Part shown: piece by piece, positions 1 to 41,379 of the stretch
How positions within the stretch are numbered: the stretch's first letter is position 1
How the letters are laid out: each line of letters begins with the position of its first letter
Source: a virus
Lineage: Duplodnaviria > Caudoviricetes
Virus record (IMG/VR): IMGVR_UViG_3300031992_000042
Coordinates: 41,696-105,695 of that record
Direction: 5' to 3' (one strand)
Length of the DNA: 64,000 bases
Made by a program: the position numbers and the translations under genes
Notes under the pieces: model-generated
Database searches by the model: none
Seen by the model: only the letters and a program-made list of their open reading frames with translations
What the model was told of the DNA's origin: nothing

Positions 1-3000
1 GTGCCAGCTATTGCGTTAGCAAATTGCTGTTGTTTAGCATCAGATAAGCTCTCCCATTTTTGAGATAACGCGAACAATGTATCAAACGAACTACGTTTAT
101 TTCCGTATTCGTCGTACATTCTTATGCCTTCTTCTTCAAGAAGCTTTGCAACAGCAGAACCACTTACAGCATTACCATTTTCGTCGTAGATAAGTTCGTT
201 TGTTCCGATCTTATTCATACGTCCAAAAATAGTATTTAATGTACGACCTGCTACATTACCACCTATTTGAGTAGTAGATGTGATAGCAGTTAACATAGCT
301 GAAAGCTGTGCAAAAGTAGTTCCGTCTGCGGCAGCAGCTGCACCAGCCTTTTCAATGCCTTTTTCGATTTCTGCGGCATTTGTAGCGGCATTATCGCCCA
401 ATGCAGTAACTATATCTGCGGCTTGTTCTGCCTGAGAAACAAGACCTGTATTCATTGCGACAGTAATAAGCTTTGTTGCGGCATCTACTTTTGTACCGGA
501 AACTTTAGAGAATTTAGAAATAACACCAAGACGTTCATCTACTTCTTGATCACTTAATCCTTGACGATAAAGTGTAGCAGCGGACTGAGTAATCTCAGCT
601 ACTGATACTTTCATTTCTTTAGCTTTATCGATTAATGTATCTCCAAGGGTAGAAATTTGTTCATCTGTTTTTAGAGTGATCATCTGAATAGTGTTCATCG
701 ACGCATCAAACTGTTTTACAAAGTTTGTTGTCTCTGAAATTGCAGACTGGAACAAACGTCTGGTAAACATGTTGGACATATATCCAAACGTTGATTTAAA
801 CTCTGTTTTAAGAATTTTGGCACCCTGACCAAGAGCAATCATTGCTGGATTAGCTCTTCTTTCAAGCTGGTCTAACCCTTCATTTATCCTATCGTATTCA
901 TTTTTGGAATATTGACCTTCATTATACTGGTTACCAACTTGCTTTCTAAGAGTATTTATCTCTTGTTTTCTTGCGGCTGAAATAACAGATAAAGAATTTT
1001 TACTCTTTAAGCCTTGTTTTATCTGTAATGACTCTAAAGCCAGTCTGCCAGCCGTCTCGTTTTGTGTTGTGTATTCAGCTGCTAAACTTGCTCTAGCATC
1101 TTGAGCATTTGCAATACGTTGGTTAGCGACTTTAATAGCATCTTCGTATTGCTTTTGGTATGCAGAATCAACCAAACCTTTATCAAGACGGTTTTGCATC
1201 CACGTAATACCATTTTGCTGCTTGGATATTCTTTCATCATATTTATTTAGTGTCTCTTTTTGTTTGCTTAAACCAAAACCGTTTAATTCTTTTGTAATAT
1301 CATCTTCAAGCTGTTTAGCATCAAGCATTATTCCGTTTGTAAAACTTTTATGCATGTTTTCAGTAACTTTATCTCTTGCTTGTGCTATCTGAGACATCCA
1401 AGCCGAACGTTGATCTTCTAAATCTTTTGTTCCTGTAAAAGCTGCATCAGATGCAAGTTCTTCTTCAAGAGCGTTTAAGGGTTGTAAATTTTCAAAAGTA
1501 CGATATTGTAAATAATTATATTGACGTTCTGCCAATGTCTTTTCATCATTTAATTTATTCTCTTTTCCTCTTTGCTCTCTCCAAAGTTCGTCCCCATAGG
1601 TTCTTGTGTCTGATAATATCTGGTTAAACCTATTTCCTACTTCTAAAGCATGTTCATATTTACTTAAATCTGCAAGAACTTTTTCTCTTTGTTCTGTTTG
1701 CTCTGCTTTTTTAGGCGTTTGCGGTCCCCATATCGCGTCAGCACTTTCAGACTGGTTTGTAGACGTCCCGCCTTGAATAGGCATACTTGCAGAACCCGAA
1801 GCTTTTGGATTTTCAACATAAACCAAATTGCCAGTATTTTTATCTTCATAAACAATATTGCCTTTTTCATCTCTGATGATATTATTGTTAGCAACAATTG
1901 CAGTTTCTGGTTTTGCAGGTTCTTTCGGTTGTTCTGGTTCTTTAAATGCCTCAGCCTGTTTGCGAAGCTCAACAACTTTTGATACAAGTGTTTGTCCTAC
2001 AGCATCTGTTGCATTTACAAAATTAGTTCTAAAGTCATCGCCATATGTACGAACAAGATCGCTTTCAAGCATACCGAATTGATCTATGGCGTTTCTTGCA
2101 GTTCTAATACCATATCTGGCTTCTTGTGCTTTAGCCCACTGCTCTTTAGTGTCATAGGCTTTATCGCCTAACATGAATTTACCAGTAGTTGGATCTCTAT
2201 AATCATCTGCAGCTAACGTCAATTCAGCAGCAGCAGCATTTATTAAGCCTTGAATATATTGACCTTCATCATTTGTAATATAAGCTCTCTCGCCTGTGCC
2301 AAATTGATGATGAAGCATACGCATCGTCTGCATCAGTTTGATGCGTTCAGGACCAGCATCACCATATCCGAGCTGTTTATCCATTGCTTCATATATAGCA
2401 TCCATTTGAGTGGGATCAACATTGCCTGTGCGATAAAGCTGGTTTGCTTGAGCAATAGCCATCATATGGTTTGACATATATCTAGAAGGCAAGTTAATTT
2501 CATCGATGCCCATATCTCTAAGGGCTCTTAAATTGATATATTCTCCATTGGATGCTTTATATATATCTGGATGACTCGCATCTATATACGTACCTTCACG
2601 AGTTTTTACAGCGTTTTTACGATCTGGGGATACGATCATGTCTTCGTCAAACTTAAACAGATCTGTACGCTTTTCTGAGAATTTAGTATATTCTTTACCT
2701 AAACCTAAAGCAGCCCAAACAGGATCATCTTTTTCTAAAGTATAAGTTTGTGCTTTTTTAGGAGTAGAACCAATATCATATATACCTGCCATTCTCTGAG
2801 CCGCATATACAAGCGCTTGGTTTTCTGGTCTTGAATAGTCGACCTGCATTATTCTGATACCAGAAGAACCTGTACCCATTGGCATAGTCGCATACAAATT
2901 GCGTTCTGCTTGAAGTCTATTTTGAACAGACCAGCTCTTTAATTGTTCTGGCGTATATACAATATCTTCACCTTTAACATCCGAGTCTTTGTATGCACCC

Positions 3001-5894
3001 ATTCGTTTTAAAGAAGCTTGTACCGCATCGGCAAGTTCTTTATCGTAAATTGCTTTTACTTGGTCTGCATCGTAGTCCATGCCTTGAAGAATTCGTCTAT
3101 CTTTTTCAGAAACATACATTCCTGTAGAAGTTGATATGCCAAATCCTTTATAAATAGGTTCTGCGTCAGCTGCCAAATTCTGCGCATAGTACATATTGCC
3201 GTATCCAGTAGGAGAGCGAACAACCGCTACATTGGCTTGATCTTTTCTGTTAAAGTCAAGCACTTTACCTTGCGGTAAAATGATCATATCTCGAATATCT
3301 TGGTCGGATAATCGAGCGTTTGCTTCTTTGTCTAAATATGAGCGAGCTTTCGCAATAGACGCATCTGGAACAGTCCCATCTTTAGCCAACAATATCGTCG
3401 CTAAAGGGCTTGCTGCAGCGCGAAGGTTTGCAATTTTGTCATCGTTGTCAAAGTTGATATATTTACCAGCAATTAAGTCGTTGTAAAGAGAAGCTCGCAT
3501 ATTATCAATTCGTGAACGAGCTTCTGTTGACGCTAATAACTGTGAATTGCCACCGAATAAAGGATTAACCTTTCGACTTAGATAGTCTTCTTTATTGCCG
3601 AATACATATTTCAACTGACCTTCTTCGGTATCAAGTTCTTGCATTCGCCTCATTGCCATTTCAATTTGATGTTGTCTTAATTCAGGAGAAAACATCATAA
3701 AAGACGACATCTGAGTACCTAAGTTATCTGAAGCAACTTGATCTAAGTCATAGTCAGCATGATAACTCATAGGATGACGCTGTAATAATGCGGTGAACCT
3801 TCTACTTGCGATATCGCCAGATACATAATTACCATTTTCGTCTTTAAGAACACCTTGGTTCTTAATAACATCCATCGGTATATATCCTTGATAATCTGCG
3901 ATATTAAATAATTCGCCGTTCGGACCAGGAGCCATTAAACGACCTTGTTCGTCAAGTAAACCAGTTTTCTTGCCAAACGCTCTTAAGTCGTTCCCTTCAA
4001 AAACAAACGCAGAACCTTTAAGACCGACTCCGCCTCTGAATTGACCAGAATGTGGCATAACTGAACTTGCAAAGAAAGCACCGCCGTCTCCGGGGGACAC
4101 TCCGCCAAGTTGATCTTTTAACCGACTTGTATCAACTACAGCAAAACGTTTACCGTCTATATTTATCCCAAGGTCTGATGTATTCGTCCATGCTTTGTTA
4201 AGCATTTCAAGATGCTTACCATACTTCTGTGCAGTAATACCATCTTTACCGCCAACGCCGTTTTGAATTAAACGATCTATTTCTGCGTCGTCGAAACCGC
4301 GCCAATATGTACCACGAATACCACGAACAGCTTCATCAGGATGGTTTCTAATCCATTCCGCTTCTTGCTCGTTAACTCTATTAAAAGCATTTTGCTCAAT
4401 CATACGAACAATAGTGTCCTGACCTGTGCCATGAATACTCTGTGCGATAAACTTGGCATTGCCTAATTGAGCGCCATTTGGATTAAAAAGGTTTTCTAAA
4501 AACTTTTGATGTTCTGGATTTTTCGCATCATATCCAGCTAATGATACAATACGAATTGTATCGCTCACGTCTTGGTTGTTTTTCCATTTACCGCCACCCA
4601 AAAGTCTTGTATTATGACTTTCAGAGATCATAACACTCCTAGGATCGCCTAATGCAACTTTATCGCCTGTAAATGGAGAATATTTAGATACTACAAGCTG
4701 ATCTTGAATACGTTTGCCTTCTCCTTGAAGTTTACTCCACGTGTTAGGATTGGCAGAATTTGTCCATGCACGAGTATCTTCCATACCTTCAATGTCTTGC
4801 ATGGCAAGCATTGCTCTGCCTGACGTAGAGGATGTTAAACGTTGCATTAACGTTCTTTTATCTGATCCTGTTGCTTTATATGCATCAATAGCATTGCCCT
4901 TATAACCAGAAACTCTAACTAAAAGATCATCATATAAAGCTTTTCTAAATCCTTCCCATTCAGATCTTGAAATTTCGTCTTTAGTTTCAAGTACGCCACG
5001 TTCATCTCTTCTGCTAATACCAGAGGCTATTGCAGCTTTTACTGCAACAGAATTGTTTTTTAGAATATTATCAAGCTGTTTTCTATAAGCAGTGTCGAGC
5101 ACCATCGACTGATATGACTTATCAAACGTCTGAAAGTCCCGGCCCTGAGATCTGAAAGTTGCCTTGAAAGACTCGGGAAATAAGTCTTCTGGTTTACCTG
5201 TATATAACCCAGCACTTACATTTTGTCTAACATGACCGTATCTTGCCTTCTGGTAAATTTTATTCATGTTAGCTGGAGTAATAGACGGAATAAGATACTC
5301 AATCATCCTATCAAGGTTGAATTCAGCATCTGTATTAGATAAGCCATGTTTGTTTAATAAACCTCTTATTGCAGGGTCCATTTTTGTTGGGTTAGTTCCG
5401 CCTGTTAATTCTTTTGCAATTTGTCCTACGTCTTTTGAGAGAATTGAACTGCCTGCTTTACTTAAGCTACTTATTCTACTCCGAACGATAGAAGTTAATT
5501 GTGGAGCAATAGTATCAAACTGATGTTGCACAGCAGATGGAAGATCTCCAAACCATTGTTTTGCTATTTGCGCACTATAAGATGTTGTACCAAGCTGAAC
5601 ATCTCTTAAAGCATTAAGCTCTAAAATATTATTATTTGCACCACGCTCAAGCGCAACACGCTCAGCATCGGAAGAATATGTTTTATTTTGAAGCTTCTCT
5701 AATTTGTCATTTAATGCGTCAACAACAGTAACTGAACGTTCAAATGAATTATCAAGAATTTTACTAACATTTGGCATTTCCGAAATACTTGTTTTTAATC
5801 CATCAATGCCTTGTTTAATGGTACTAATTTGTTGTTTCGCATCTCCAAAGTCCATGTTAGCAGATATATTAAGTTTAATTTCATTCCACGGCAT
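1..5894 (-). CDS. Tape measure protein (partial, runs off window start) with an N-terminal YonO/RdRP-like RNA polymerase domain
   Basis: ATG at 5894 with AAAGGAG RBS (MPWNEIKLNISANMDF). The frame appears open to position 1, since no closed long ORF is listed here. TMP core VKQFDASMNTIQMIT..LYRQGLS near 550-720 is in the same frame as GDGG..QFRGGVGLKG, VVRSP and GMDYDADQ. Position downstream of tail tube and chaperones fits a TMP. Confidence 0.85.
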   Translation of the reverse strand, partial: MPWNEIKLNISANMDFGDAKQQISTIKQGIDGLKTSISEMPNVSKILDNSFERSVTVVDALNDKLEKLQNKTYSSDAERVALERGANNNILELNALRDVQLGTTSYSAQIAKQWFGDLPSAVQHQFDTIAPQLTSIVRSRISSLSKAGSSILSKDVGQIAKELTGGTNPTKMDPAIRGLLNKHGLSNTDAEFNLDRMIEYLIPSITPANMNKIYQKARYGHVRQNVSAGLYTGKPEDLFPESFKATFRSQGRDFQTFDKSYQSMVLDTAYRKQLDNILKNNSVAVKAAIASGISRRDERGVLETKDEISRSEWEGFRKALYDDLLVRVSGYKGNAIDAYKATGSDKRTLMQRLTSSTSGRAMLAMQDIEGMEDTRAWTNSANPNTWSKLQGEGKRIQDQLVVSKYSPFTGDKVALGDPRSVMISESHNTRLLGGGKWKNNQDVSDTIRIVSLAGYDAKNPEHQKFLENLFNPNGAQLGNAKFIAQSIHGTGQDTIVRMIEQNAFNRVNEQEAEWIRNHPDEAVRGIRGTYWRGFDDAEIDRLIQNGVGGKDGITAQKYGKHLEMLNKAWTNTSDLGINIDGKRFAVVDTSRLKDQLGGVSPGDGGAFFASSVMPHSGQFRGGVGLKGSAFVFEGNDLRAFGKKTGLLDEQGRLMAPGPNGELFNIADYQGYIPMDVIKNQGVLKDENGNYVSGDIASRRFTALLQRHPMSYHADYDLDQVASDNLGTQMSSFMMFSPELRQHQIEMAMRRMQELDTEEGQLKYVFGNKEDYLSRKVNPLFGGNSQLLASTEARSRIDNMRASLYNDLIAGKYINFDNDDKIANLRAAASPLATILLAKDGTVPDASIAKARSYLDKEANARLSDQDIRDMIILPQGKVLDFNRKDQANVAVVRSPTGYGNMYYAQNLAADAEPIYKGFGISTSTGMYVSEKDRRILQGMDYDADQVKAIYDKELADAVQASLKRMGAYKDSDVKGEDIVYTPEQLKSWSVQNRLQAERNLYATMPMGTGSSGIRIMQVDYSRPENQALVYAAQRMAGIYDIGSTPKKAQTYTLEKDDPVWAALGLGKEYTKFSEKRTDLFKFDEDMIVSPDRKNAVKTREGTYIDASHPDIYKASNGEYINLRALRDMGIDEINLPSRYMSNHMMAIAQANQLYRTGNVDPTQMDAIYEAMDKQLGYGDAGPERIKLMQTMRMLHHQFGTGERAYITNDEGQYIQGLINAAAAELTLAADDYRDPTTGKFMLGDKAYDTKEQWAKAQEARYGIRTARNAIDQFGMLESDLVRTYGDDFRTNFVNATDAVGQTLVSKVVELRKQAEAFKEPEQPKEPAKPETAIVANNNIIRDEKGNIVYEDKNTGNLVYVENPKASGSASMPIQGGTSTNQSESADAIWGPQTPKKAEQTEQREKVLADLSKYEHALEVGNRFNQILSDTRTYGDELWREQRGKENKLNDEKTLAERQYNYLQYRTFENLQPLNALEEELASDAAFTGTKDLEDQRSAWMSQIAQARDKVTENMHKSFTNGIMLDAKQLEDDITKELNGFGLSKQKETLNKYDERISKQQNGITWMQNRLDKGLVDSAYQKQYEDAIKVANQRIANAQDARASLAAEYTTQNETAGRLALESLQIKQGLKSKNSLSVISAARKQEINTLRKQVGNQYNEGQYSKNEYDRINEGLDQLERRANPAMIALGQGAKILKTEFKSTFGYMSNMFTRRLFQSAISETTNFVKQFDASMNTIQMITLKTDEQISTLGDTLIDKAKEMKVSVAEITQSAATLYRQGLSDQEVDERLGVISKFSKVSGTKVDAATKLITVAMNTGLVSQAEQAADIVTALGDNAATNAAEIEKGIEKAGAAAAADGTTFAQLSAMLTAITSTTQIGGNVAGRTLNTIFGRMNKIGTNELIYDENGNAVSGSAVAKLLEEEGIRMYDEYGNKRSSFDTLFALSQKWESLSDAKQQQFANAIAG

Positions 5895-33971: not shown

Positions 33972-34757
33972 ATGGAGTTTCGAGATAAGTATGCGTTTTT
34001 AAGTAATATGTATTCCTGTCCTATTCATTATAAAGGAGAAACTTTTCCTTGTATAGAAACTGCTTTTCAATGGGAAAAATGTGCAGATGTCAACGAACAA
34101 GAGAAGTTCATAAATAATAAAGGCTATTTTGTAAACGGATTTGTTGCACGTAAACTTGGTCGGCAGGTAAAACTAAGAGACGACTGGAAGTATGCACGAC
34201 TGACTGTTATGTATGACCTTCTTGAAGAGAAATTTTGTCGCAATGAAAAACTTCGACAAGCACTAAAAGATACAGGAAATATTTGGATTCAGGAAGACAA
34301 TGACTGGGGCGATACATTCTGGGGTGTTTGCAATGGCGTAGGAGAAAATATGCTAGGCAAAATGATAATGGAAATACGTCAGAATATTCAAGACTGCGAT
34401 AGAGACGTCAAGAAAGTTATTGTCGCAGGAAGTAGAAATTTTAAAGATTATAAATTGCTCTGTAAACGACTGGATTATTATTTTTCTAATATTCAACCGA
34501 TTATTATTTGCGGTGAAGCTCGAGGCGCAGATACCTTAGGCAGAAAATACGCAGAAGAACATAATTACTTAATTGAATCTTATCCTGCTGATTGGTCAAA
34601 AGGCAGAGATGCAGGATATATAAGAAATAAAAGAATGGCAGAAGTTGCAGATTGTGCAATATGCTTTTGGAATGGAAAATCTAAAGGGACAGAACACATG
34701 ATCGATACAATGAAGAAACTGAATAAACCTGTAAAGGTGGTGAAATTTGTTGATTAA
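33972..34757 (+). CDS. NADAR domain fused to SLOG (YspA/DUF2493-like) domain
   Basis: FLSNMY..E.AFQ..KF..L..TG..WGDTFWG..GENMLGKMIMEIR, then VIVAGSR..GEARGAD..AGYIRN..FWNGKSKGT. Confidence 0.85.
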   Translation: MEFRDKYAFLSNMYSCPIHYKGETFPCIETAFQWEKCADVNEQEKFINNKGYFVNGFVARKLGRQVKLRDDWKYARLTVMYDLLEEKFCRNEKLRQALKDTGNIWIQEDNDWGDTFWGVCNGVGENMLGKMIMEIRQNIQDCDRDVKKVIVAGSRNFKDYKLLCKRLDYYFSNIQPIIICGEARGADTLGRKYAEEHNYLIESYPADWSKGRDAGYIRNKRMAEVADCAICFWNGKSKGTEHMIDTMKKLNKPVKVVKFVD

Positions 34758-35488: not shown

Positions 35489-35718
35489 GAATAAGAGAAG
35501 ATACGCATGATGTAGGAGGACTTTATTGGCTCTCTGAGATGGATAAGTTTCGTGGAATTGAGACATGTATTAAAAGCACAAATGGACGTTGGTATCATCT
35601 TGAAAAAGGTTCTTACGAAGGCAGTGATACATATGCGTATGATGAATCCTGGCTTGAATTAATTACAGAAGATAATTTTAGTATTGAAGAAAAAGAAATA
35701 GAAAAATTTTTTACATAA
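35464..35718 (+). CDS. SH3/KOW-like small protein (paralog 4)
   Basis: FKVGDKVRIR..YAYDESWLELI. Confidence 0.6.
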   Translation: MFKVGDKVRIREDTHDVGGLYWLSEMDKFRGIETCIKSTNGRWYHLEKGSYEGSDTYAYDESWLELITEDNFSIEEKEIEKFFT

Positions 35719-35730
35719 AGGAGATAAAAA

Positions 35731-36516
35731 ATGGCTAACACAAAGAAAATTAAAGTTGAAGTTGAAAACAACGAAGGTAAAACTGAAGTTATGGAGCTTC
35801 CTGAGCGAGCAACAGAGCGAATTGAGATTAAGAAAGTTCCTGTTGAAAAAGTTCGTGTAAAGATTGTTGGAGATACTCCGCTTCTTGTTCATGCATGGTC
35901 TGAAAAAGTTAAGAAACAGCTTTTGACTGATATGCAGATGTCAAAGCGTGAAAAGAAAGAAAAAGAACACGAGAAGAAAGATCCGTTTGCGGATTTTGTT
36001 GAAGCTGCATACTGGATTACTCCTATGCCCCAGGTTCGTGGACTTCCGTTTGAAGAACAGGTTAAATTGTTTGAAAAAGCAATCGAAGATGGAGCTAAAT
36101 TTGGATTTCCCACAATTGCGTTTAAGAAAGCTGCTATTACTGCTTGTTATAGCGCAGGATATATTAAGAGTACAGCTCTTATGCGCAGGCTGTTCCATGT
36201 TAACGCTGTGAATGGTGCGCATGTTGGCTCTTCTCAGGAACTGGCAATTATCGATATTGAAGAACCGCCGGAATTGTCTGAAGACGTTGTAAAAGTTGGT
36301 CCTTTCAATAATCGTGTACCTGATCTTCGTTATCGTCCTTCTTTCCGTAAATGGTCTGTTGAACTTGAACTGAGCCTTATCAAGACAGGTATGTTTACAC
36401 TTGAAGATATTGTTAATGCCGTTGATATGGGCGGATTTATGAATGGCGTCGGTGAATGGCGCACAGAGAAAGACGGAGAATTTGGTAATTATCATGTTTA
36501 CAGGGAGGGTGAGTAA
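35731..36516 (+). CDS. Stand-alone Cas7/RAMP-like protein (Vipr-like)
   Basis: IVGDTPLLVH (RAMP strand 1), FPTIAFKKA (P..s.K motif), RP.F..W, C-terminal Gly-rich loop GGFMNGVGEWR..DGEFG. Confidence 0.7.
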   Translation: MANTKKIKVEVENNEGKTEVMELPERATERIEIKKVPVEKVRVKIVGDTPLLVHAWSEKVKKQLLTDMQMSKREKKEKEHEKKDPFADFVEAAYWITPMPQVRGLPFEEQVKLFEKAIEDGAKFGFPTIAFKKAAITACYSAGYIKSTALMRRLFHVNAVNGAHVGSSQELAIIDIEEPPELSEDVVKVGPFNNRVPDLRYRPSFRKWSVELELSLIKTGMFTLEDIVNAVDMGGFMNGVGEWRTEKDGEFGNYHVYREGE

Positions 36517-36517
36517 T

Positions 36518-36802
36518 ATGAATATTAATGAAATAGTTGATTATCTGCTTAATATAAAATTTGAAGGTTTAATTGATGCTCCTTATATTGAAATTGGGAA
36601 AAATAATAACAATCAATATACCGCAGAATTAAGTAATGTTTGGGTTCTGTCTGACGACGAAGAAAGCATGGCTGGCGAGTATGGAGTTGGATCAACAGTC
36701 GAAGAAGCATTATCAAACTATATTGCCATAATTAAAGGGAAAACGCTTATTATTCAAGATGAACTTGAAGAAGAAAAAGAATATACAGCATTTGTTAGTT
36801 GA
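36518..36802 (+). CDS. Hypothetical acidic protein between RAMP gene and accessory gene
   Basis: GAGGGTG RBS before MNINE. Confidence 0.55.
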   Translation: MNINEIVDYLLNIKFEGLIDAPYIEIGKNNNNQYTAELSNVWVLSDDEESMAGEYGVGSTVEEALSNYIAIIKGKTLIIQDELEEEKEYTAFVS

Positions 36803-36816
36803 CGAGGTGAATAAAT

Positions 36817-37311
36817 ATGGGTCAAGCGTTTGAATATAAGTATCGAGTAAGCGGCATTGTTAAAGCTCCTGCAGAAATAACTGGCAGAGTCTGCAAAAGC
36901 TTAATCGATGAAGATGGTGCAGTAACGCCTGAAAGACTCGTTGAGGTTAGTAAGCCTAAAGATGCTCCGCTTCATAACGAATTTGAATGGAATAACACAA
37001 TTGCAGCGCAGAAATATCGTGAAGAACAAGCACGTCAAATTATCAAGAATATTGTAATAATGGAAGTTTCAGAAGAAATTGGTGAGCCTAAACAAGTTAA
37101 ATGTTGGGTTAACAGTGATCGTGCTTTTGTTCCTACTGATGAAAGACTACATCGGTATGTCACAATTGATACGGCTTTAAGCACAGAAGCATGGCGTAAG
37201 AATCTTCTTAAAGCTGCAAGAAGAGATATGACATCGTTTATTGCTAAATATAGACGACTGACTGAATTAAGTAAAATTATCGATGATATGAACGATTTCC
37301 TTGGAGCCTAA
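36817..37311 (+). CDS. Phage protein (TPE.LV..S.P...PLH..FEW...AA.KYR..QAR), candidate accessory of the RAMP/array system
   Basis: Recognisable phage hypothetical motif; immediately upstream of the array. Confidence 0.65.
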   Translation: MGQAFEYKYRVSGIVKAPAEITGRVCKSLIDEDGAVTPERLVEVSKPKDAPLHNEFEWNNTIAAQKYREEQARQIIKNIVIMEVSEEIGEPKQVKCWVNSDRAFVPTDERLHRYVTIDTALSTEAWRKNLLKAARRDMTSFIAKYRRLTELSKIIDDMNDFLGA

Positions 37312-37367
37312 GAGCTAAGAGGCGCTGTAAGATCTCTCGAAGTGGATGAAAAGTCTGAACATGGTTA

Positions 37368-38053
37368 GGCAGCCTGGGTGGGGTCGGTATAGGCGCGTAC
37401 AGGTGCGTTGGGTTATGTTAGGGCAGTCAAGGTTAGTTGCGGCTCGAACGGGTTAGTACGGGTGTGTTATGCCAAGGCAGTCATGGTGGCGCGAGATAGG
37501 TTACGTTGAGAACGGGTTTGTTTAGCAGTGGCAGTCGTGGAATGTAAAGGCACGTTAAGTTGTGTAGGGGATAGCATAGGCAGTCGTGGTACGCTTAGTT
37601 TCGTATGGACTAGTTGTGCAATGGCAGTCACGGTGGGTTGAGTAATGTTACGGCAGGGACAGGCTTGGTTAGTTCTGGCAGTCTAGGTTAGTAATGTTGC
37701 GTAGTGGTTCGTTTAGTACGGGCGGCGTATGGCAGTCTAGGTGTGGACAGGAGGCGGTTTGTCTGTGTTGGTTCCGTTACGGCAGTCGAGGTTAGTTCCG
37801 TTATGTTACGTACAGGTGGGCTATGGCAGTCATGGTGAGCTGTGTTAGCGAGAGGCGTGGTCTGGTTGCGTCGAGGCAGTCAAGGTCAGGTAATGCCTGG
37901 TCGGTCGGGTTACGTTATGATTTGTTGGCGTAAGGGTCGGCAGTCGGGGTGTGTACCGGAGTGTTAACGTCCGACACGTTATGTTCGGGCTGTCTAGGCA
38001 AGATAAGGTATCGTATGCTGAGTTGGGTACTGCTATGTCTTGTAGTGGCTGTC
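37368..38053 (+). repeat. Array of 14 GGCAGTC anchors separated by 7-11 pentamers (mostly G-K-H-N-N); candidate guide-RNA array
   Basis: Anchors at 37368, 37422, 37476, 37530, 37579, 37623, 37677, 37731, 37781, 37825, 37875, 37939, 37988, 38047; spacings 54,54,54,49,44,54,54,50,44,50,64,49,59. Confidence 0.9.
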
Positions 38054-38497
38054 TAAGAAATTCGCGCTGGGGAGACGCGAAGAAATATCTCCCCATTCTT
38101 GTGGGATAATATAAAACGATTTTATACTACTATGTTTAGTTATAAAAACTATCTATAACTACGTTTGTTCTGCTAAATAAAAAAGCTTAAAACTCTAATA
38201 ATTTCAACGCCAACCGCAAGCGGTTGGCACTATACCGTGAACTCCTGGTACTTACCATCGGGCACCAGCGATCTACATATAATTTATAGAATATTCTAAG
38301 AAATAATGTTTGATAAAATGAAAAGAATATTTCTGTAATTAAAAAGCAATTTCTCTGTAAAAGATGAAGGTGTGTCAGAGAAATAGCAAGCAAAATTTGA
38401 CATTTTCTGTGCGATAACACCTCCTCGCACATGACCGAAAAGAGAGACTGGTGTATTGATGGGGCATCAGCCTCTCTTCTTTTTAAAGGAGATTTAC

Positions 38498-38995
38498 ATG
38501 AGATACCTTGTTGTTGAAGAAGATGAAATTTATGATGATATCGACGAAGCAATAAAGCAATGTATTGAAGATGATTGGCATCGAGACGATGATTATTTTG
38601 AAGAATGGGTTAATGACCGATATAATCCTGTTGAAATAAACGGTGAATGGTATAACCCATATGATATCTTGGATAATATGGACCAAGGTAATCTTGATGA
38701 TCTTCGGGATGAATACTGTGAAAGTGAAAATGAAAATGACGGAGATGATGCTCGATATGAAATTGAACATGGAAGAATTGGCGACTTAATTACTGTTCAT
38801 AACCATACAATTGAAATTCTTGACGATGAAGACCTCGAAGAAATTAGTGATTACGATGGGGACGAACATCTTGAAACGATTGAAGATGTCCGTGCTCGGT
38901 TAAAACAAGAAAATGAATTTAAAGTCGAGCAAACTATACAGACAGAAAAAGAAGAAAAAGATCTTATGAATATGTTTCAGATAGTAGGTGAGTAA
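38498..38995 (+). CDS. Highly acidic hypothetical protein
   Basis: AAGGAGA RBS before MRYLV. Confidence 0.6.
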   Translation: MRYLVVEEDEIYDDIDEAIKQCIEDDWHRDDDYFEEWVNDRYNPVEINGEWYNPYDILDNMDQGNLDDLRDEYCESENENDGDDARYEIEHGRIGDLITVHNHTIEILDDEDLEEISDYDGDEHLETIEDVRARLKQENEFKVEQTIQTEKEEKDLMNMFQIVGE

Positions 38996-39368
38996 TATGG
39001 GTTACTATACAGATTATACACTTACGGTCCGCAAAATAAAAAACGAAGAAGAGTTTAATAAACTGAATGAATATCTAAAAGAAAAAGAGATTATTAATTA
39101 TGCTATCCAAGAAGGCGACTACGATCCGAACCATCAAGAAGCGGTTTTCTATCCTTATGACAGTGTCAAATGGTATGATCATTCAGAAGCAATGGTAGGG
39201 ATTGCAGAAAAATTTCCTAAAATGTATTTCGAACTTGAAGGCGCAGGAGAAGTATCTGGGGACTTCTGGAAAGAATATTATCACGATATGGACATAGAAT
39301 ATTGTCGTGGTGAAGTTGTTTACGAACAGCCAAAGAAAGTAGCTTGGCAAGACTTGCTTGTGATATAA
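38988..39368 (+). CDS. Hypothetical protein (MGYYTDY..KWY..GE family)
   Basis: ORF track. Confidence 0.6.
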   Translation: MSNMGYYTDYTLTVRKIKNEEEFNKLNEYLKEKEIINYAIQEGDYDPNHQEAVFYPYDSVKWYDHSEAMVGIAEKFPKMYFELEGAGEVSGDFWKEYYHDMDIEYCRGEVVYEQPKKVAWQDLLVI

Positions 39369-39482: not shown

Positions 39483-39568
39483 GTCCAGATGTCCGAGCTT
39501 GGTTTAAGGAGATAGTCCTGAAAACTATTGAGTGTAATGCTCCGCAGGTTCGAATCCTGCTCTGGACG
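39483..39568 (+). tRNA. tRNA-Ser(TGA) with C at position 33
   Basis: GTCCAGA/TCTGGAC acceptor, long variable arm, loop CC-TGA-AA, GTTCGAATC, discriminator G. Confidence 0.75.
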
Positions 39569-39740
39569 CTTTTATATGCGGATATGATAGAATCGGCAGG
39601 TTCAACTCCTGCGTCCGTACTTAAAGACCCGGACAATTGCATATTGAGTCTTTAGCCTTTACCAAGCTTTCTTTAGGTATGCGACTTTCGTCTGCTGTAG
39701 TTAACAGCAGTCTATTTTTATATATAGGAGTGGTAAACCT

Positions 39741-40172
39741 ATGCATGATTTATCTAATTACAATATTTATACTTGTAAAGATGGCAGAGTTAGAGCATAT
39801 AACAAAATAACTCATGCTGTAACATCCTATCCAAGATTACTAATGGAAATAAAACTTGGACGACCTTTATTAAAAACAGAAGATGTTCATCATATTGATG
39901 AAAATCCGCAGAATAATAACATTGAAAATCTAGAAGTTGTTGATCATCGCGAGCACGATAGGCAACATGCACGAAAATATTTTGATAAAGAAATGATATG
40001 TCCAATTTGTGGCAAAACGTTTATTTGGACGGCATATCAACAAGTAAAAAGAGCTGGTAATATGCAAAGAAAAAATAGAATAATACCTAAAATCGGACCA
40101 TGTTGTTCTAAATCATGTGCTGGTAAAGCAAGTGCAATGACAATTAAAGAAAATAAAAGAAAGGCTGTTTGA
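39741..40172 (+). CDS. HNH homing endonuclease with Zn finger
   Basis: DVHHIDENPQNNNIENL..H; CPICG..CC. Confidence 0.85.
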   Translation: MHDLSNYNIYTCKDGRVRAYNKITHAVTSYPRLLMEIKLGRPLLKTEDVHHIDENPQNNNIENLEVVDHREHDRQHARKYFDKEMICPICGKTFIWTAYQQVKRAGNMQRKNRIIPKIGPCCSKSCAGKASAMTIKENKRKAV

Positions 40173-40186
40173 CAGCCTTTATATAT

Positions 40187-40472
40187 GCTCTCTTGTCGGA
40201 ATTAGGCATACGAAGCGGACTTTGAAATGAGCACCAAGATAAGAAATTTCTTGAGTGAATGCTGGCTAATTCGGTGAAACTCTCATTGAGACAACGCCGA
40301 GCTAAATTCGTAGCGATACGATAAACGTGTAGAGACTATATACCAGCTACCTAAATCGAAAGACATGGTAAAGACATAGTCCAGACTACAACAGAAATGG
40401 CTGTGGCGACACAGAGTAGTAAGAAAATCCGTTGCCCGAAAGGGATTGGGGGTTCGATTCCCCCAGAGAGCA
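40187..40472 (+). tRNA. tRNA-Leu(TAA) interrupted by group I intron; exons 40187-40222 and 40424-40472
   Basis: GCTCTCT/AGAGAGC acceptor; spliced loop CTTAAAA in stem GCGGA/TCCGT. Confidence 0.85.
40223..40423 (+). mobile_element. Group I intron in tRNA-Leu anticodon
   Basis: P7 elements GTAGAGACTA and AAGACATAGTCC; terminal G; insertion after U34. Confidence 0.85.
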
Positions 40473-40632
40473 CGTTCGAGGTTCATACAGCGAAAGCTAC
40501 CCTCGCGGACGAAGGTATGAATACTACACGGTCTTAAACCCAACAGGACAAACAGCGGCAGTAGTTGTAGGTTGAAGTCGAGCAATGGGGAACAACCTTC
40601 TGGCTGCTAGGAAAGACTAGCTTCATATATAT

Positions 40633-40709
40633 GCCAGATTAGCTCAGTTGGCATGAGCAGTTGATTTGTAATCATCAGGTCAAGGGTTCAAGTCCCTTAT
40701 CTGGCTCCA
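40633..40709 (+). tRNA. tRNA-Thr(TGT)
   Basis: Cloverleaf, loop TTTGTAA, encoded CCA. Confidence 0.85.
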
Positions 40710-40947
40710 AGAACGTCTGAGACAGAATTCTAGAACAACTGTCAATAAGAAAACACTCTATGAGATAGACCTTTAAGGATAAAATGCTCCTGCACTCGAG
40801 AAAAGCGAAAATAAAAATTTACGCAGGATTTCGGAAGCTCGTTTTCTTAACGTTCCACATTACATCATTATTAAAAGACAAATTCTCCTACGATGACTTA
40901 TAGGAAAGACTATACGGTTGCTGGGTGCTGCTAAACCCAGTGCTTAT

Positions 40948-41021
40948 GCTCCGCAAGCTCAATTGGTCGAGCAGTCGGCTTATATCCGAAAGGATCGTGG
41001 GTTCAAGTCCCCGGCGGAGTA
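40948..41021 (+). tRNA. tRNA-Ile(TAT)
   Basis: GCTCCGC/GCGGAGT acceptor, loop CTTATAT, GTTCAAGTC. Confidence 0.75.
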
Positions 41022-41305
41022 CTAGGAGAGATGGCAAGTAAATGCAGGACGCTGCATAGTGAAGGACACTACTCGAGAATAGCCCTGTAACTGCGCAGGA
41101 TAAGAGAACGCCGTGGGTGTACACAAAAACCAGAATATAATAAAGCACGGTCTGAACAAAAGTTCTTCTGCTCTCCTTATTATCCGTCGCTGTGGGCAAT
41201 AAAATGCAGATATCCTTAACAGGACTCTCTTGCGGGACGGATATTACCGCTGTACTAGTGTACAGTTGGTTCCTGGAGTCGTCTTTATAGACGGCTCCTG
41301 TTTAT

Positions 41306-41376
41306 AGCCCTTTAGCGTAATGGTAGCGCAGTGGACTTTGACTCCATATGTGGTAGTCCGATTCTACCAAGGGCTG
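41306..41376 (+). tRNA. tRNA-Gln(TTG)
   Basis: AGCCCTT/AAGGGCT acceptor, loop CTTTGAC; T-loop variant TCCGATT. Confidence 0.75.
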
Positions 41377-41379
41377 CTA

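What the first reader, a model, noticed from the sequence alone, without database searches (positions are those of the whole stretch)
35731..38053. Cas7/RAMP-like gene + accessory gene + pentamer-periodic guide-like array (VIPR-like RNA-guided system)
Seen: 14 anchors GGCAGTC (variants GGCAGCC, GGCTGTC); 11 of 13 spacings equal 5n+4. Each unit is anchor + NN + 7-11 pentamers that nearly always start with G, e.g. GGTac GCTta GTTtc GTAtg GACta GTTgt GCAat. The last two bases vary freely and every unit is unique. No cas1/cas2 is present. The upstream 261-aa protein has RAMP hallmarks. Known: Cas7 backbones bind RNA with a fixed nucleotide period. From memory, this resembles the recently reported phage VIPR systems (GGY/NN repeats), but here the constant triplet is relaxed to GGT/GGC/GTT/GTA/GCT/GA-, so it may be a divergent variant. 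Inference: 13 guide RNAs, one protein subunit per pentamer, with the variable dinucleotides specifying targets such as competing phages.
Basis: partly seen in the sequence, partly recalled or inferred. Interest (0 to 1): 0.9.

Follow-up and report, generated by a model that had tools for sequence, protein, structure and literature searches.

The report
Phage VIPR system with 13 guides
An uncultured 106-kb sheep-gut phage carries a complete VIPR system, the RNA-guided gene-silencing kit of phages first described in 2026, and one of its 13 guides matches the equivalent gene of a rival phage family, so it is a good new example of a known kind rather than a new kind.

Summary
Window 37368-38053 carries 14 anchors (GGCAGYC or GGCTGTC). 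Eleven of the 13 spacings equal 5n+4. The pentamers between anchors read G(90%)-K(86%)-H-N-N. This is the only such region in the 105.7-kb phage record.

- **Protein.** The 261-aa protein is a Vipr homologue (SUSP1 Vipr, PDB 36pp, profile E=5e-13). The five SUSP1 residues that contact the RNA are kept. The model (pLDDT 94.7) matches only Cas7-type RAMPs.
- **Locus.** A 164-aa gene of unknown family always follows vipr. No Cas1 or Cas2 is present.
- **Array.** The anchor reads as the end of one guide (GGC-AG) sharing one G with the start of the next (GYC-NN). This fits the 'staggered array' drawn, but not tested, in the VIPR discovery preprint.
- **Targets.** Under the published one-base-skip rule, guide 13 matches 76 IMG/VR contigs exactly (22 of 22 bases). 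Every match is in frame on the motif YKKIIDGLIFV, with the skipped base at the wobble position. The target is a small RAMP gene followed by its own period-5 array, that is, a rival VIPR. Guide 2 matches a helicase gene and a terminase gene.

Expression, processing and silencing are untested. Verdict: new member of a known kind.

The parts
35731..36516 (+). vipr: 261-aa single-RRM RAMP protein (Vipr homologue)
   Evidence: PDB 36pp_D 'SUSP1 Vipr protein' scores E=4e-6 with the single sequence, 6e-9 with profile A1 and 5e-13 with profile A2. H54, R202, E242, W243 and R244 align with SUSP1 H17, R138, D177, W178 and R179. The AF2 model has pLDDT 94.7. The top Foldseek hits are all Cas7, Csm3, Cmr4 or Cas7-11. 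The family has 2217 representative clusters.
36518..36802 (+). 94-aa ORF of unknown function; a variable insert, not part of the conserved core
   Evidence: It has no Pfam or PHROG match. Among the four IMG/VR relatives it is found only in L003, at 38% identity.
36817..37311 (+). 164-aa conserved accessory gene (vap candidate), family unknown
   Evidence: It lies directly downstream of vipr in L001-L004 at 43-71% identity. In the NCBI MAG it carries the neighbouring locus tag to the Vipr homologue. It matches phrog_15946, function unknown. No PDB, Pfam or Atlas annotation was found.
37312..37367 (+). conserved leader between the vap stop codon and the first anchor
   Evidence: The sequence is conserved across the window, L001, L091, L099, L002, L003 and L097. 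It has no significant predicted fold.
37368..38053 (+). staggered vrRNA array: 14 anchors and 13 guides of 45-65 nt. Each guide reads GYC-NN, then GKH-NN repeats, then GGC-AG
   Evidence: The same layout is found in nine related loci, where 63 of 72 guides are exact multiples of 5 nt and 70 are unique.
37426..37480 (+). guide 2 (NN string AA TA GC TC CG TA CG GT AT AA)
   Evidence: It gives 7 exact one-base-skip matches in IMG/VR. They lie antisense in SNF2-type helicase genes (3 contigs) and gpA-type large terminase genes (4 contigs), with the skipped base at the wobble position.
37992..38051 (+). guide 13 (NN string TA AA AA AT AT GA GG CT AT TT GT), an anti-VIPR guide
   Evidence: It gives 76 exact 22/22 matches in IMG/VR. 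All are in frame on YKKIIDGLIFV, on the sense strand of a RAMP gene of about 195 aa. It matches 15-22 of 22 bases in 12 homologues that were not chosen by the pattern.
38054..38106 (+). trailer with a conserved hairpin-capable element (GGGGAGA ... TCTCCCC); candidate terminator
   Evidence: The element is conserved in the trailers of the window, L002, L091 and L097. In L097 a T-run follows it. The fold is not significant on its own, z = -1.6.

Best explanation
This is a VIPR (Viral Interference Programmable Repeat) system of a temperate-looking, Firmicute-type sheep-gut phage. It consists of vipr (35731-36516), a conserved 164-aa accessory gene (36817-37311) and a staggered array of 13 vrRNAs (37368-38053).

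The proposed working is as follows.
1. The operon and the array are transcribed together on the + strand (inferred).
2. The precursor yields 13 guides of 9-13 pentamers. Each starts with GYC-NN and ends with GGC-AG, and neighbours share one G. This produces the 5n+4 spacing and a -1 register break at every boundary (inferred from the sequence and from fig. S18 of the discovery preprint).
3. One Vipr protomer binds each pentamer. It holds G1, K2 and H3 with the conserved His, thumb Arg and G-loop E-W-R, and presents N4 and N5 (inferred by homology to the SUSP1 cryo-EM structures).
4. The NN dinucleotides pair with double-stranded DNA while skipping every third target base. This step is shown computationally here for guides 13 and 2.
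5. Binding silences the target gene without cutting it, because the locus holds no recognisable nuclease (inferred from the SUSP1 experiments).

Guide 13 is aimed at the most conserved codons of the vipr gene of a rival family of phages and prophages of about 40 kb. Relatives of that target gene sit mostly in Clostridia and Oscillospiraceae MAGs. Guide 2 is aimed at helicase and terminase genes of other proviruses.
For: **Protein.**
- The profile hit to the solved SUSP1 Vipr is E=5.3e-13.
- The N-terminal strand motif aligns as well: IKIvGdtPLlvHa against IKITGTRPFLSHA.
- H54, R202, E242, W243 and R244 are invariant or nearly so across homologues.
- The model has pLDDT 94.7, and the Foldseek hits listed (to rank 50; 26 at E <= 0.001) are all Cas7-type RAMPs at probability 0.98-1.00.

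**Array.**
- See the observation check for the window itself.
- The architecture is conserved downstream of vipr and the 164-aa gene in nine related contigs, and the guide content is almost entirely different between them.

**Code.**
- Guide 13 matches 76 contigs at 22 of 22 bases. The sites show 23 DNA variants that differ only at the skipped bases, and those bases are the codon third positions.
- For calibration, a 16-base guide pattern gave 5 unrelated hits. By scaling, about 0.001 chance hits are expected for 22 bases and about 0.02 for 20 bases.
- Four other guides of 20-24 bases gave no hit.
- Guide 13 has the same sense as the target mRNA, so it can pair only with DNA.

**Target.**
- The target is a RAMP-like gene. 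The Atlas cluster is named 'Cas system-associated RAMP superfamily protein', and there are weak profile hits to type VII Cas7 and Csm4.
- The 400 nt after its stop codon show period-5 G autocorrelation of 0.31, 0.25 and 0.16 across 71 loci, against about 0 in controls.
- The papers report the same behaviour: the skipped base at the wobble position, and guides that target rival VIPR systems.

**Other.**
- No self-target exists in the record.
- No Cas1 or Cas2 is present.
- The phage's terminase-like protein matches only phages of Firmicutes, and most relatives of the target gene sit in Clostridia MAGs.
Against: - There is no direct evidence that the array is transcribed, processed or bound. Contigs from RNA libraries cover vipr and the accessory gene, but such libraries can also hold DNA.
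- Five of the seven guides tested have no convincing exact target.
- Guide 2 hits two unrelated gene families, so one of the two hits may be chance.
- The triplet is looser than the GGY that SUSP1 Vipr requires: position 2 is G or T, and position 3 is A in 24% of pentamers. Binding is therefore inferred by homology and not shown.
- There is no 3' tail or pseudoknot like that of the characterised type II vrRNAs.
- The hosts of this phage and of its targets are known only at the level 'Firmicutes'.
Confidence: 0.88

Rival explanations
1. This is a decaying or orphan VIPR-like locus. The protein and repeats are relics that no longer make working guides, and the target matches reflect ancestry rather than present function.
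For: Five of the seven guides tested lack exact targets. Two guides carry a 1-nt bulge. The triplet is degenerate. A variant of the phage without the cassette seems to exist.
Against: All RNA-contact residues are invariant or nearly so in a large family. The ORFs are intact. The architecture is conserved across contigs with 70-94% Vipr identity while the guides turn over. The bulged guide 8 is conserved in L001 with its NN string unchanged. A 22 of 22 match across 76 contigs is unlikely for a decaying guide.
Confidence: 0.05
2. The system is RNA-guided but cuts or degrades its targets, or acts on RNA like type III Cas7 complexes, with the 164-aa or the 94-aa protein as effector, rather than silencing DNA by binding alone.
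For: The closest solved folds are Csm3, Cmr4 and type VII Cas7, which bind RNA targets. The 164-aa and 94-aa proteins have no known fold or function. The discovery paper describes VIPR types with nucleases.
Against: Guide 13 has the same sense as the target mRNA, so it cannot pair with that transcript. The two targeted strands differ, sense for guide 13 and antisense for guide 2, as expected for DNA targeting. No nuclease or helicase domain was detected in the locus. The paper places nuclease-bearing types mostly in host defence islands.
Confidence: 0.06
3. The periodic region acts as DNA, for example as an array of protein-binding sites, iterons or a recombination hotspot, and its position beside a RAMP gene is a coincidence.
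For: No direct RNA evidence exists for the array.
Against: The array follows vipr in every relative examined, and also in Gordonia phage Ecliptus whose Vipr is only 34% identical. The NN strings read as gapped matches to phage genes. Period 5 with hypervariable NN is the published signature of vrRNA.
Confidence: 0.01

Closest known systems
Type II VIPR of Escherichia phage SUSP1 and of a Pseudomonas fulva prophage (bioRxiv 10.64898/2026.04.26.720920 and 10.64898/2026.04.26.720927; PDB 36pp)
   Same: It has a homologous Vipr protein with the same RNA-contact residues. The locus is minimal, vipr plus an accessory gene plus an array downstream. The repeats are pentamers with hypervariable NN. Targets follow the one-base-skip rule with the skipped base at the wobble position. 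Some guides target rival VIPR systems. It is phage-borne and lacks cas1 and cas2.
   Different: The protein is 261 aa rather than 202 aa, with about 36 extra N-terminal residues. The triplet is G-K-H rather than GGY. The guides are 45-65 nt with no 3' tail or pseudoknot. There are 13 guides packed head to tail with a one-base overlap, rather than 3-4 separate RNAs of about 100 nt. The accessory protein could not be matched to any vap sequence, because none was available to compare.
Staggered vrRNA arrays (fig. S18 of the discovery preprint) and the alternative repeats NNNGG, YNNNG and NNNNG (its methods section)
   Same: A one-base overlap between the end of one vrRNA and the start of the next explains the 5n+4 spacing exactly. 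A relaxed repeat consensus is also described there.
   Different: The preprint's text does not say which VIPR type or taxa carry staggered arrays. It states that only the ribozyme-spaced and single-vrRNA layouts were confirmed by small-RNA sequencing. I could not see the figure or the data tables, so identity with the published example is not established.
Cas7 backbone subunits of class 1 CRISPR effectors (Csm3, Cmr4, type VII Cas7, Cas7-11)
   Same: It shares the RRM core, the G-loop and the thumb fold. One protomer binds per fixed RNA period.
   Different: The period is 5 nt rather than 6. There is no second RRM, no Cas5, Cas6, Cas10 or Cas1-2, and no repeat-spacer array. Sequence identity is 6-15%.
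Vipr homologues of cultured actinophages (Gordonia phage Ecliptus gp19 and 25 Mycobacterium phage records), all annotated 'hypothetical protein'
   Same: They are 29-34% identical over 87% of the protein. In Ecliptus a noncoding pentamer array of about 260 nt follows the gene directly.
   Different: The Ecliptus array uses canonical GGC/GGY-NN pentamers in a GC-rich genome and shows no GGCAGYC anchors. No homologue of the 164-aa gene is evident beside it.

Membership tests
VIPR system | A Vipr protein: a minimal single-RRM RAMP with G-loop and thumb, homologous to characterised Vipr | tested here: met
   SUSP1 Vipr (36pp_D) scores E=5.3e-13 with profile A2. H54, R202, E242, W243 and R244 align with SUSP1 H17, R138, D177, W178 and R179. 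The fold matches only Cas7-type RAMPs.
VIPR system | A noncoding array of tandem pentamers in which a conserved triplet (GGY or a related consensus) alternates with hypervariable NN, with at least 4 repeats | tested here: met
   There are 13 units of 9-13 pentamers. The positions read G 90%, K 86%, H 99%, N, N. The triplet is relaxed relative to GGY, and the paper allows related consensuses.
VIPR system | A minimal, virus-borne locus (vipr plus vap) without cas1, cas2 or a CRISPR array | tested here: met
   The record is a 105.7-kb virus record. Its terminase-like protein matches only phages. Cas1 and Cas2 are absent. The conserved 164-aa neighbour is present in all relatives.
VIPR system | The NN dinucleotides specify DNA targets with one skipped base per repeat | tested here: met
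   Guide 13 matches 22 of 22 bases in 76 contigs, with the skipped base at the wobble position. Guide 2 matches 20 of 20 in 7 contigs. Skips of 0 and 2 give nothing on the same loci. This is computational only, and five other guides have no convincing match.
VIPR system | vrRNAs are expressed, processed and co-purify with Vipr, and binding represses transcription | not testable with these tools
   Only assembled contigs of two metatranscriptome runs were available. They cannot show small RNAs or RNA ends.
Type II VIPR (SUSP1 and P. fulva clade) | vrRNAs of about 100 nt, each capped by an invariant 3' tail or pseudoknot | tested here: not met
   The units are 45-65 nt. The only constant parts are 5' GYC and 3' GGCAG. 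No significant structure is predicted and there is no Rfam match.
VIPR with staggered array (fig. S18) | Adjacent vrRNAs overlap by 1 nt, so that the end of one marks the start of the next | tested here: inconclusive
   The sequence fits. Eleven of 13 guides here, and 63 of 72 across relatives, are exact multiples of 5 nt when one G is shared. The real RNA ends are unknown.
CRISPR-Cas (class 1) | A repeat-spacer array with repeats of 23 nt or more, an adaptation module and a multi-subunit effector | tested here: not met
   The only repeats are 7-11 nt anchors. Cas1 and Cas2 are absent. vipr is the only RAMP-like gene found among the ORFs examined around the locus.

The most novel reading that the evidence does not exclude
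In this tail-less, staggered architecture the guide boundaries may be set by nothing more than a -1 break of the pentamer register at GGCAG/GYC. In that case the Vipr filament itself would measure out each guide, and the conserved 164-aa protein or host RNases would cut the exposed junction. The G-K-H triplet would mean that this Vipr clade reads position 2 as 'keto base' (G or U) and tolerates A at position 3. That would be a looser protein-RNA code than the GGY solved for SUSP1, and it would allow VIPR to live in AT-rich genomes.
Probability: 0.3. Interest if true: 0.6.

Novelty: new member of a known kind. Interest (0 to 1): 0.45.

Why it matters
VIPR was described only in 2026, and its experimental basis is two closely related type II systems from Proteobacteria.

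This locus is a clean natural example from a very different setting: an AT-rich, 106-kb phage of gut Firmicutes. It has 13 guides, a relaxed repeat code and the staggered, tail-less array layout, which the discovery paper drew but did not test.

The locus also comes with a concrete predicted target, the conserved YKKIIDGLIFV codons of a rival phage family's own vipr gene. This makes it a ready test case for three questions:
- how staggered arrays are processed;
- how strict the triplet code really is;
- whether VIPR-against-VIPR warfare extends beyond enterobacterial phages.

It also shows that the published one-base-skip rule transfers unchanged to a distant Vipr clade.

Tried and rejected
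- **Structure.** Single-sequence AlphaFold gave pLDDT 39.6 and was useless. It was replaced by the alignment-based model.
- Related loci came from the search for related loci instead.
- **Rfam.** Nothing matched in 36500-39000.
- **Promoters.** The sigma-70 scan found no more sites than in shuffles.
- **Guides without exact hits.** Guides 3, 6, 7 and 11 gave no exact one-base-skip match in IMG/VR.
- **Guide 9.** Its 16-base pattern gave five unrelated hits in inconsistent frames. I read these as chance and used them only to calibrate the background.
- **Self-targeting.** No self-target exists under skip 0, 1 or 2. Skip 3 only finds the array itself.
- **Cross-targeting.** No convincing cross-targeting was found between this phage and its four IMG/VR relatives.
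- **Other guides on the guide-13 targets.** The other 12 guides do not hit five complete genomes that guide 13 targets. A guide from L003 matches one of those genomes at 16 of 16 bases, but it is not aligned to the wobble position and occurs in 1 of 76 loci. I treat it as unproven.
- **Guide-2 targets.** The contigs hit by guide 2 do not carry the RAMP gene that guide 13 targets.
- **Substitution test on shared guides.** Overall this was not significant: 17 of 114 triplet sites changed against 14 of 86 NN sites, p = 0.84. Three shared guides do show 11 triplet changes and no NN change.
- **RNA folding.** The leader, the odd 50-nt unit and the trailer gave no significant structure.
- **RNA-library contigs.** They cover vipr and the accessory gene but not the array. 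No conclusion can be drawn from that.
- **Complex prediction.** Complex prediction of Vipr with the 164-aa protein gave no verdict.
- **The 164-aa protein.** Pfam gave only sub-threshold Tad5 matches. PDB by sequence and by profile, and the ESM Atlas, gave nothing usable.
- **Identity of the guide-13 target.** The profile-profile comparison of the target RAMP family with the Vipr family was weak (E = 0.0028, probability 11%, G-loop region only). Its identity as a Vipr therefore rests on the adjacent period-5 array and on the RAMP-type hits.
- **Rejected readings.** I rejected a coding-frame origin of the period, a CRISPR array and tandem DNA iterons.
Full report
**1. The observation**

Window 37368-38053 holds 14 anchors: GGCAGCC once, GGCAGTC eleven times and GGCTGTC twice. 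The spacings are 54, 54, 54, 49, 44, 54, 54, 50, 44, 50, 64, 49 and 59, so 11 of 13 equal 5n+4.

The extended anchor GGCAGYCNNGG occurs 12 times in the 64-kb window. All 12 lie in the array, against 0.17 expected from shuffles.

Read in the register set by each anchor, the pentamers have G at position 1 (101 of 112) and G or T at position 2 (96 of 112). Position 3 is T, A or C (109 of 112). Positions 4 and 5 are near-uniform. G autocorrelation peaks at lags 5, 10, 15 and 20.

The window is part of a 105,695-bp virus record. In the whole record this is the only place with the anchors or the period, and only on the + strand. Only short ORFs (41-83 aa) overlap the array, and a 5-nt period cannot be a coding artefact.

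**2. The protein**

The 261-aa ORF (35731-36516) has no Pfam family and matches one PHROG of unknown function.

Against the sequences of solved structures, its only significant hit is 'SUSP1 Vipr protein' (36pp_D). The E-value is 4e-6 with the single sequence, 6e-9 with a 34-sequence profile and 5.3e-13 with a 105-sequence profile.

The cryo-EM paper names the SUSP1 residues that hold the GGY triplet: H17, R138, D177, W178 and R179. In the alignments these fall on H54, R202, E242, W243 and R244. All five are invariant or nearly so in the family.

Single-sequence AlphaFold failed. With the 105-sequence alignment the model reaches pLDDT 94.7 and pTM 0.84.

Foldseek against the PDB returns only Cas7-type RAMPs at probability 0.98-1.00: type VII Cas7, Csm3, Cmr4/6 and Cas7-11. 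That library ends in April 2026 and does not hold the Vipr entries.

The family is large, with 2217 representative clusters at E <= 0.001. No Cas1 or Cas2 is present in the record.

**3. The locus and its relatives**

Thirteen related contigs from IMG/VR and metagenomes have Vipr identities of 70-100%. The four IMG/VR contigs all carry vipr followed by a homologue of the 164-aa ORF (43-71% identity), and that gene lies directly next to vipr in three of them. In all nine contigs that reach far enough downstream, a conserved leader of about 56 nt and an array with the same GGCAGYC anchors follow.

The 94-aa ORF between vipr and the 164-aa gene is found only in one of the four IMG/VR relatives. 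It is therefore not part of the conserved core.

Across ten loci I extracted 72 guides, of which 70 are unique. The arrays share architecture but almost no content, as CRISPR arrays do.

A conserved element that can form a hairpin (GGGGAGA ... TCTCCCC) follows the last anchor in several relatives, once with a T-run. This suggests a terminator for + strand transcription.

**4. What the anchor is**

The sequence before the anchor stays in pentamer register through GGCAG, which is a normal GGY-NN unit. The sequence after the anchor is in register from the fifth base onward, as GYC-NN, GGH-NN and so on. The two registers share one G.

Each guide is therefore GYC-NN, then (GKH-NN)n, then GGC-AG. 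With the shared G, 11 of the 13 guides here and 63 of 72 across the relatives are exact multiples of 5 nt, from 40 to 65 nt.

The two exceptions here, guides 8 and 10, each carry a single extra C after the fourth pentamer. The register resumes after it. Guide 8 is conserved with that bulge in L001.

This matches what the discovery preprint calls staggered arrays. Its fig. [quoted passage not shown] The preprint states that only the ribozyme-spaced and single-guide layouts were confirmed by small-RNA sequencing. The staggered layout is therefore untested.

**5. The code and the targets**

The papers show that NN dinucleotides pair with DNA while one target base per repeat is skipped, and that the skipped base usually falls on the codon wobble position. 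I wrote each guide's NN string as NNxNNx... and scanned IMG/VR for exact matches.

- **Guide 13** (22 specified bases) matched 76 contigs.
  - Every site is in frame on the peptide YKKIIDGLIFV.
  - The 23 DNA variants differ only at the skipped bases, which are the codon third positions.
  - The guide has the sense of the coding strand. It can therefore pair only with the template DNA strand and not with the mRNA.
- **Guide 2** (20 bases) matched 7 contigs, antisense and again aligned to the wobble position.
  - Three hits lie in an SNF2-type helicase gene (FITRYREAYF).
  - Four lie in a gpA-type large terminase gene (FMTRYREAYL).
  - Two of these records are classed as proviruses.
- **Guides 3, 6, 7 and 11** gave nothing.
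- **Guide 9** (16 bases) gave five unrelated hits in inconsistent frames. I use these as a rough background. By scaling, about 0.02 chance hits are expected for 20 bases and about 0.001 for 22 bases.

No guide matches the phage's own genome under skip 0, 1 or 2.

**6. What guide 13 hits**

The target gene encodes a protein of about 195 aa with a C-terminal G-loop (GIGQWRNSGKGRF). The evidence that it is a RAMP is as follows.

- Its profile gives only weak hits, and all are RAMPs: type VII Cas7 and Csm4, at E = 0.05-0.07.
- The profile-profile comparison with the Vipr family is also weak (E = 0.0028) and limited to the G-loop.
- Its Atlas cluster is named 'Cas system-associated RAMP superfamily protein' and is 89% viral.
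- In 71 loci the 400 nt after its stop codon show period-5 G autocorrelation of 0.31, 0.25 and 0.16, against about 0 in controls. Pentamers of the GGC-NN and xGC kind are visible there.

I conclude, with moderate confidence, that this gene is the vipr of another VIPR clade.

The targeted motif covers the invariant residues Y95, D100, G101 and L102 of that family. In 12 homologues found independently of the pattern, the site still matches 15-22 of 22 bases. Nine of the 12 exceed the 80% threshold used in the paper. Most of those homologues come from Clostridia, Oscillospiraceae and Ruminococcus MAGs, and a few come from other phyla.

Targeting of rival VIPR systems is reported for the P. fulva clade and for the SUSP1 family.

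This phage's terminase-like protein matches only phages of Firmicutes. A shared host group is therefore plausible, but only at that coarse level.

**7. The relaxed triplet**

Here G1 is kept at 90%. Position 2 is G (44%) or T (42%). Position 3 is T (58%), A (24%) or C (18%) and almost never G.

A 34%-identical Vipr in the GC-rich Gordonia phage Ecliptus is followed by a canonical GGC-NN array. The loosening therefore looks like a feature of the AT-rich clade; this genome is 37% GC.

G and U share a keto group and an imino proton on the face that SUSP1 Vipr reads. My inference, which is untested, is that position 2 is read as 'keto base'.

**8. Expression**

Two sheep-gut metatranscriptome runs hold contigs identical to parts of vipr and of the 164-aa gene. 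These are assembled contigs from libraries that may contain DNA, and they cannot show small RNAs. Expression and processing remain untested.

**9. Comparison and verdict**

All testable defining features of VIPR are met. The type II hallmark, a 3' tail or pseudoknot on guides of about 100 nt, is not met. The staggered layout fits by sequence.

The three 2026 preprints already describe each of the following: VIPR itself, relaxed repeat consensuses, staggered arrays, targets aligned to the wobble position, and anti-VIPR guides. This locus is therefore a new member of a known kind.

Its value is as a well-delimited natural test case from a distant clade, with a concrete predicted target. The 164-aa accessory protein remains without any functional assignment.

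Noticed in passing
window 35716-38078: One contig of an RNA-library run joins 35716 to 38078 with 5 other letters between. A DNA-run contig joins 35700 to 38312 with 18 letters between. Related phage variants in sheep gut therefore seem to lack exactly the vipr-vap-array cassette, which would make it a presence/absence module. Depth is low (2-3) and each join rests on a single contig.
   Followed up: partly
L005-L080 (IMG/VR), e.g. L058 4920-5330 in the orientation of the target gene, and L007 605-1186: A family of phages and prophages of about 35-55 kb and about 53% GC carries a RAMP gene of about 195 aa. It is followed by 400-650 nt of noncoding DNA with a period of 5 (pentamers of the GGC-NN and xGC kind). 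This is apparently another VIPR clade, with most relatives in Clostridia and Oscillospiraceae MAGs.
   Followed up: partly
L133 (Gordonia phage Ecliptus, OP820472.1) 2480-3370: Gene 19, annotated 'hypothetical protein', is a Vipr homologue (34% identity). A canonical GGC-NN pentamer array of about 260 nt follows it and carries no annotation. Twenty-five Mycobacterium phage records and five Gordonia phage records hold such homologues, all annotated as hypothetical.
   Followed up: partly
window 37735-37785 and 37829-37879: Guides 8 and 10 each carry one extra C after the fourth pentamer, after which the register resumes. Guide 8 keeps this bulge and an identical NN string in relative L001, so the bulge seems to be tolerated or used.
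   Followed up: partly
window 37785-37829 and 37943-37992, against L001 and L091: Guides shared between relatives can differ only in their triplets. There are 6 triplet changes in one pair and 3 in the other, against 0 changes in 16 NN positions each. This is as expected if NN carries the specificity. Other shared guides do change NN, and the pooled test is not significant.
   Followed up: yes
L003 5706-5750 against G002 (IMG/VR record of L008) around 36442: A guide of relative L003 matches one of the genomes targeted by guide 13 at 16 of 16 bases under the one-base-skip rule. The match is not aligned to the wobble position and occurs in only 1 of 76 loci, so it may be chance.
   Followed up: partly
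window 33972-34757: A 261-aa protein fuses a NADAR domain (E=7e-20) to a YAcAr/SLOG domain (E=5e-14). It lies two genes upstream of vipr and may belong to nucleotide or ADP-ribose signalling or counter-defence.
   Followed up: no
window 39483-41377: Three tRNA genes lie downstream of the cassette: Ser(tga), Thr(tgt) and Gln(ttg). RNA-library depth is highest around 40209-40475.
   Followed up: no
window 38988-39368: A 126-aa ORF has a sub-threshold match to the RnlA toxin domain (E=0.0011, 19.6 bits against a cut-off of 27) and matches phrog_6306. A homologue lies upstream of vipr in L001.
   Followed up: no
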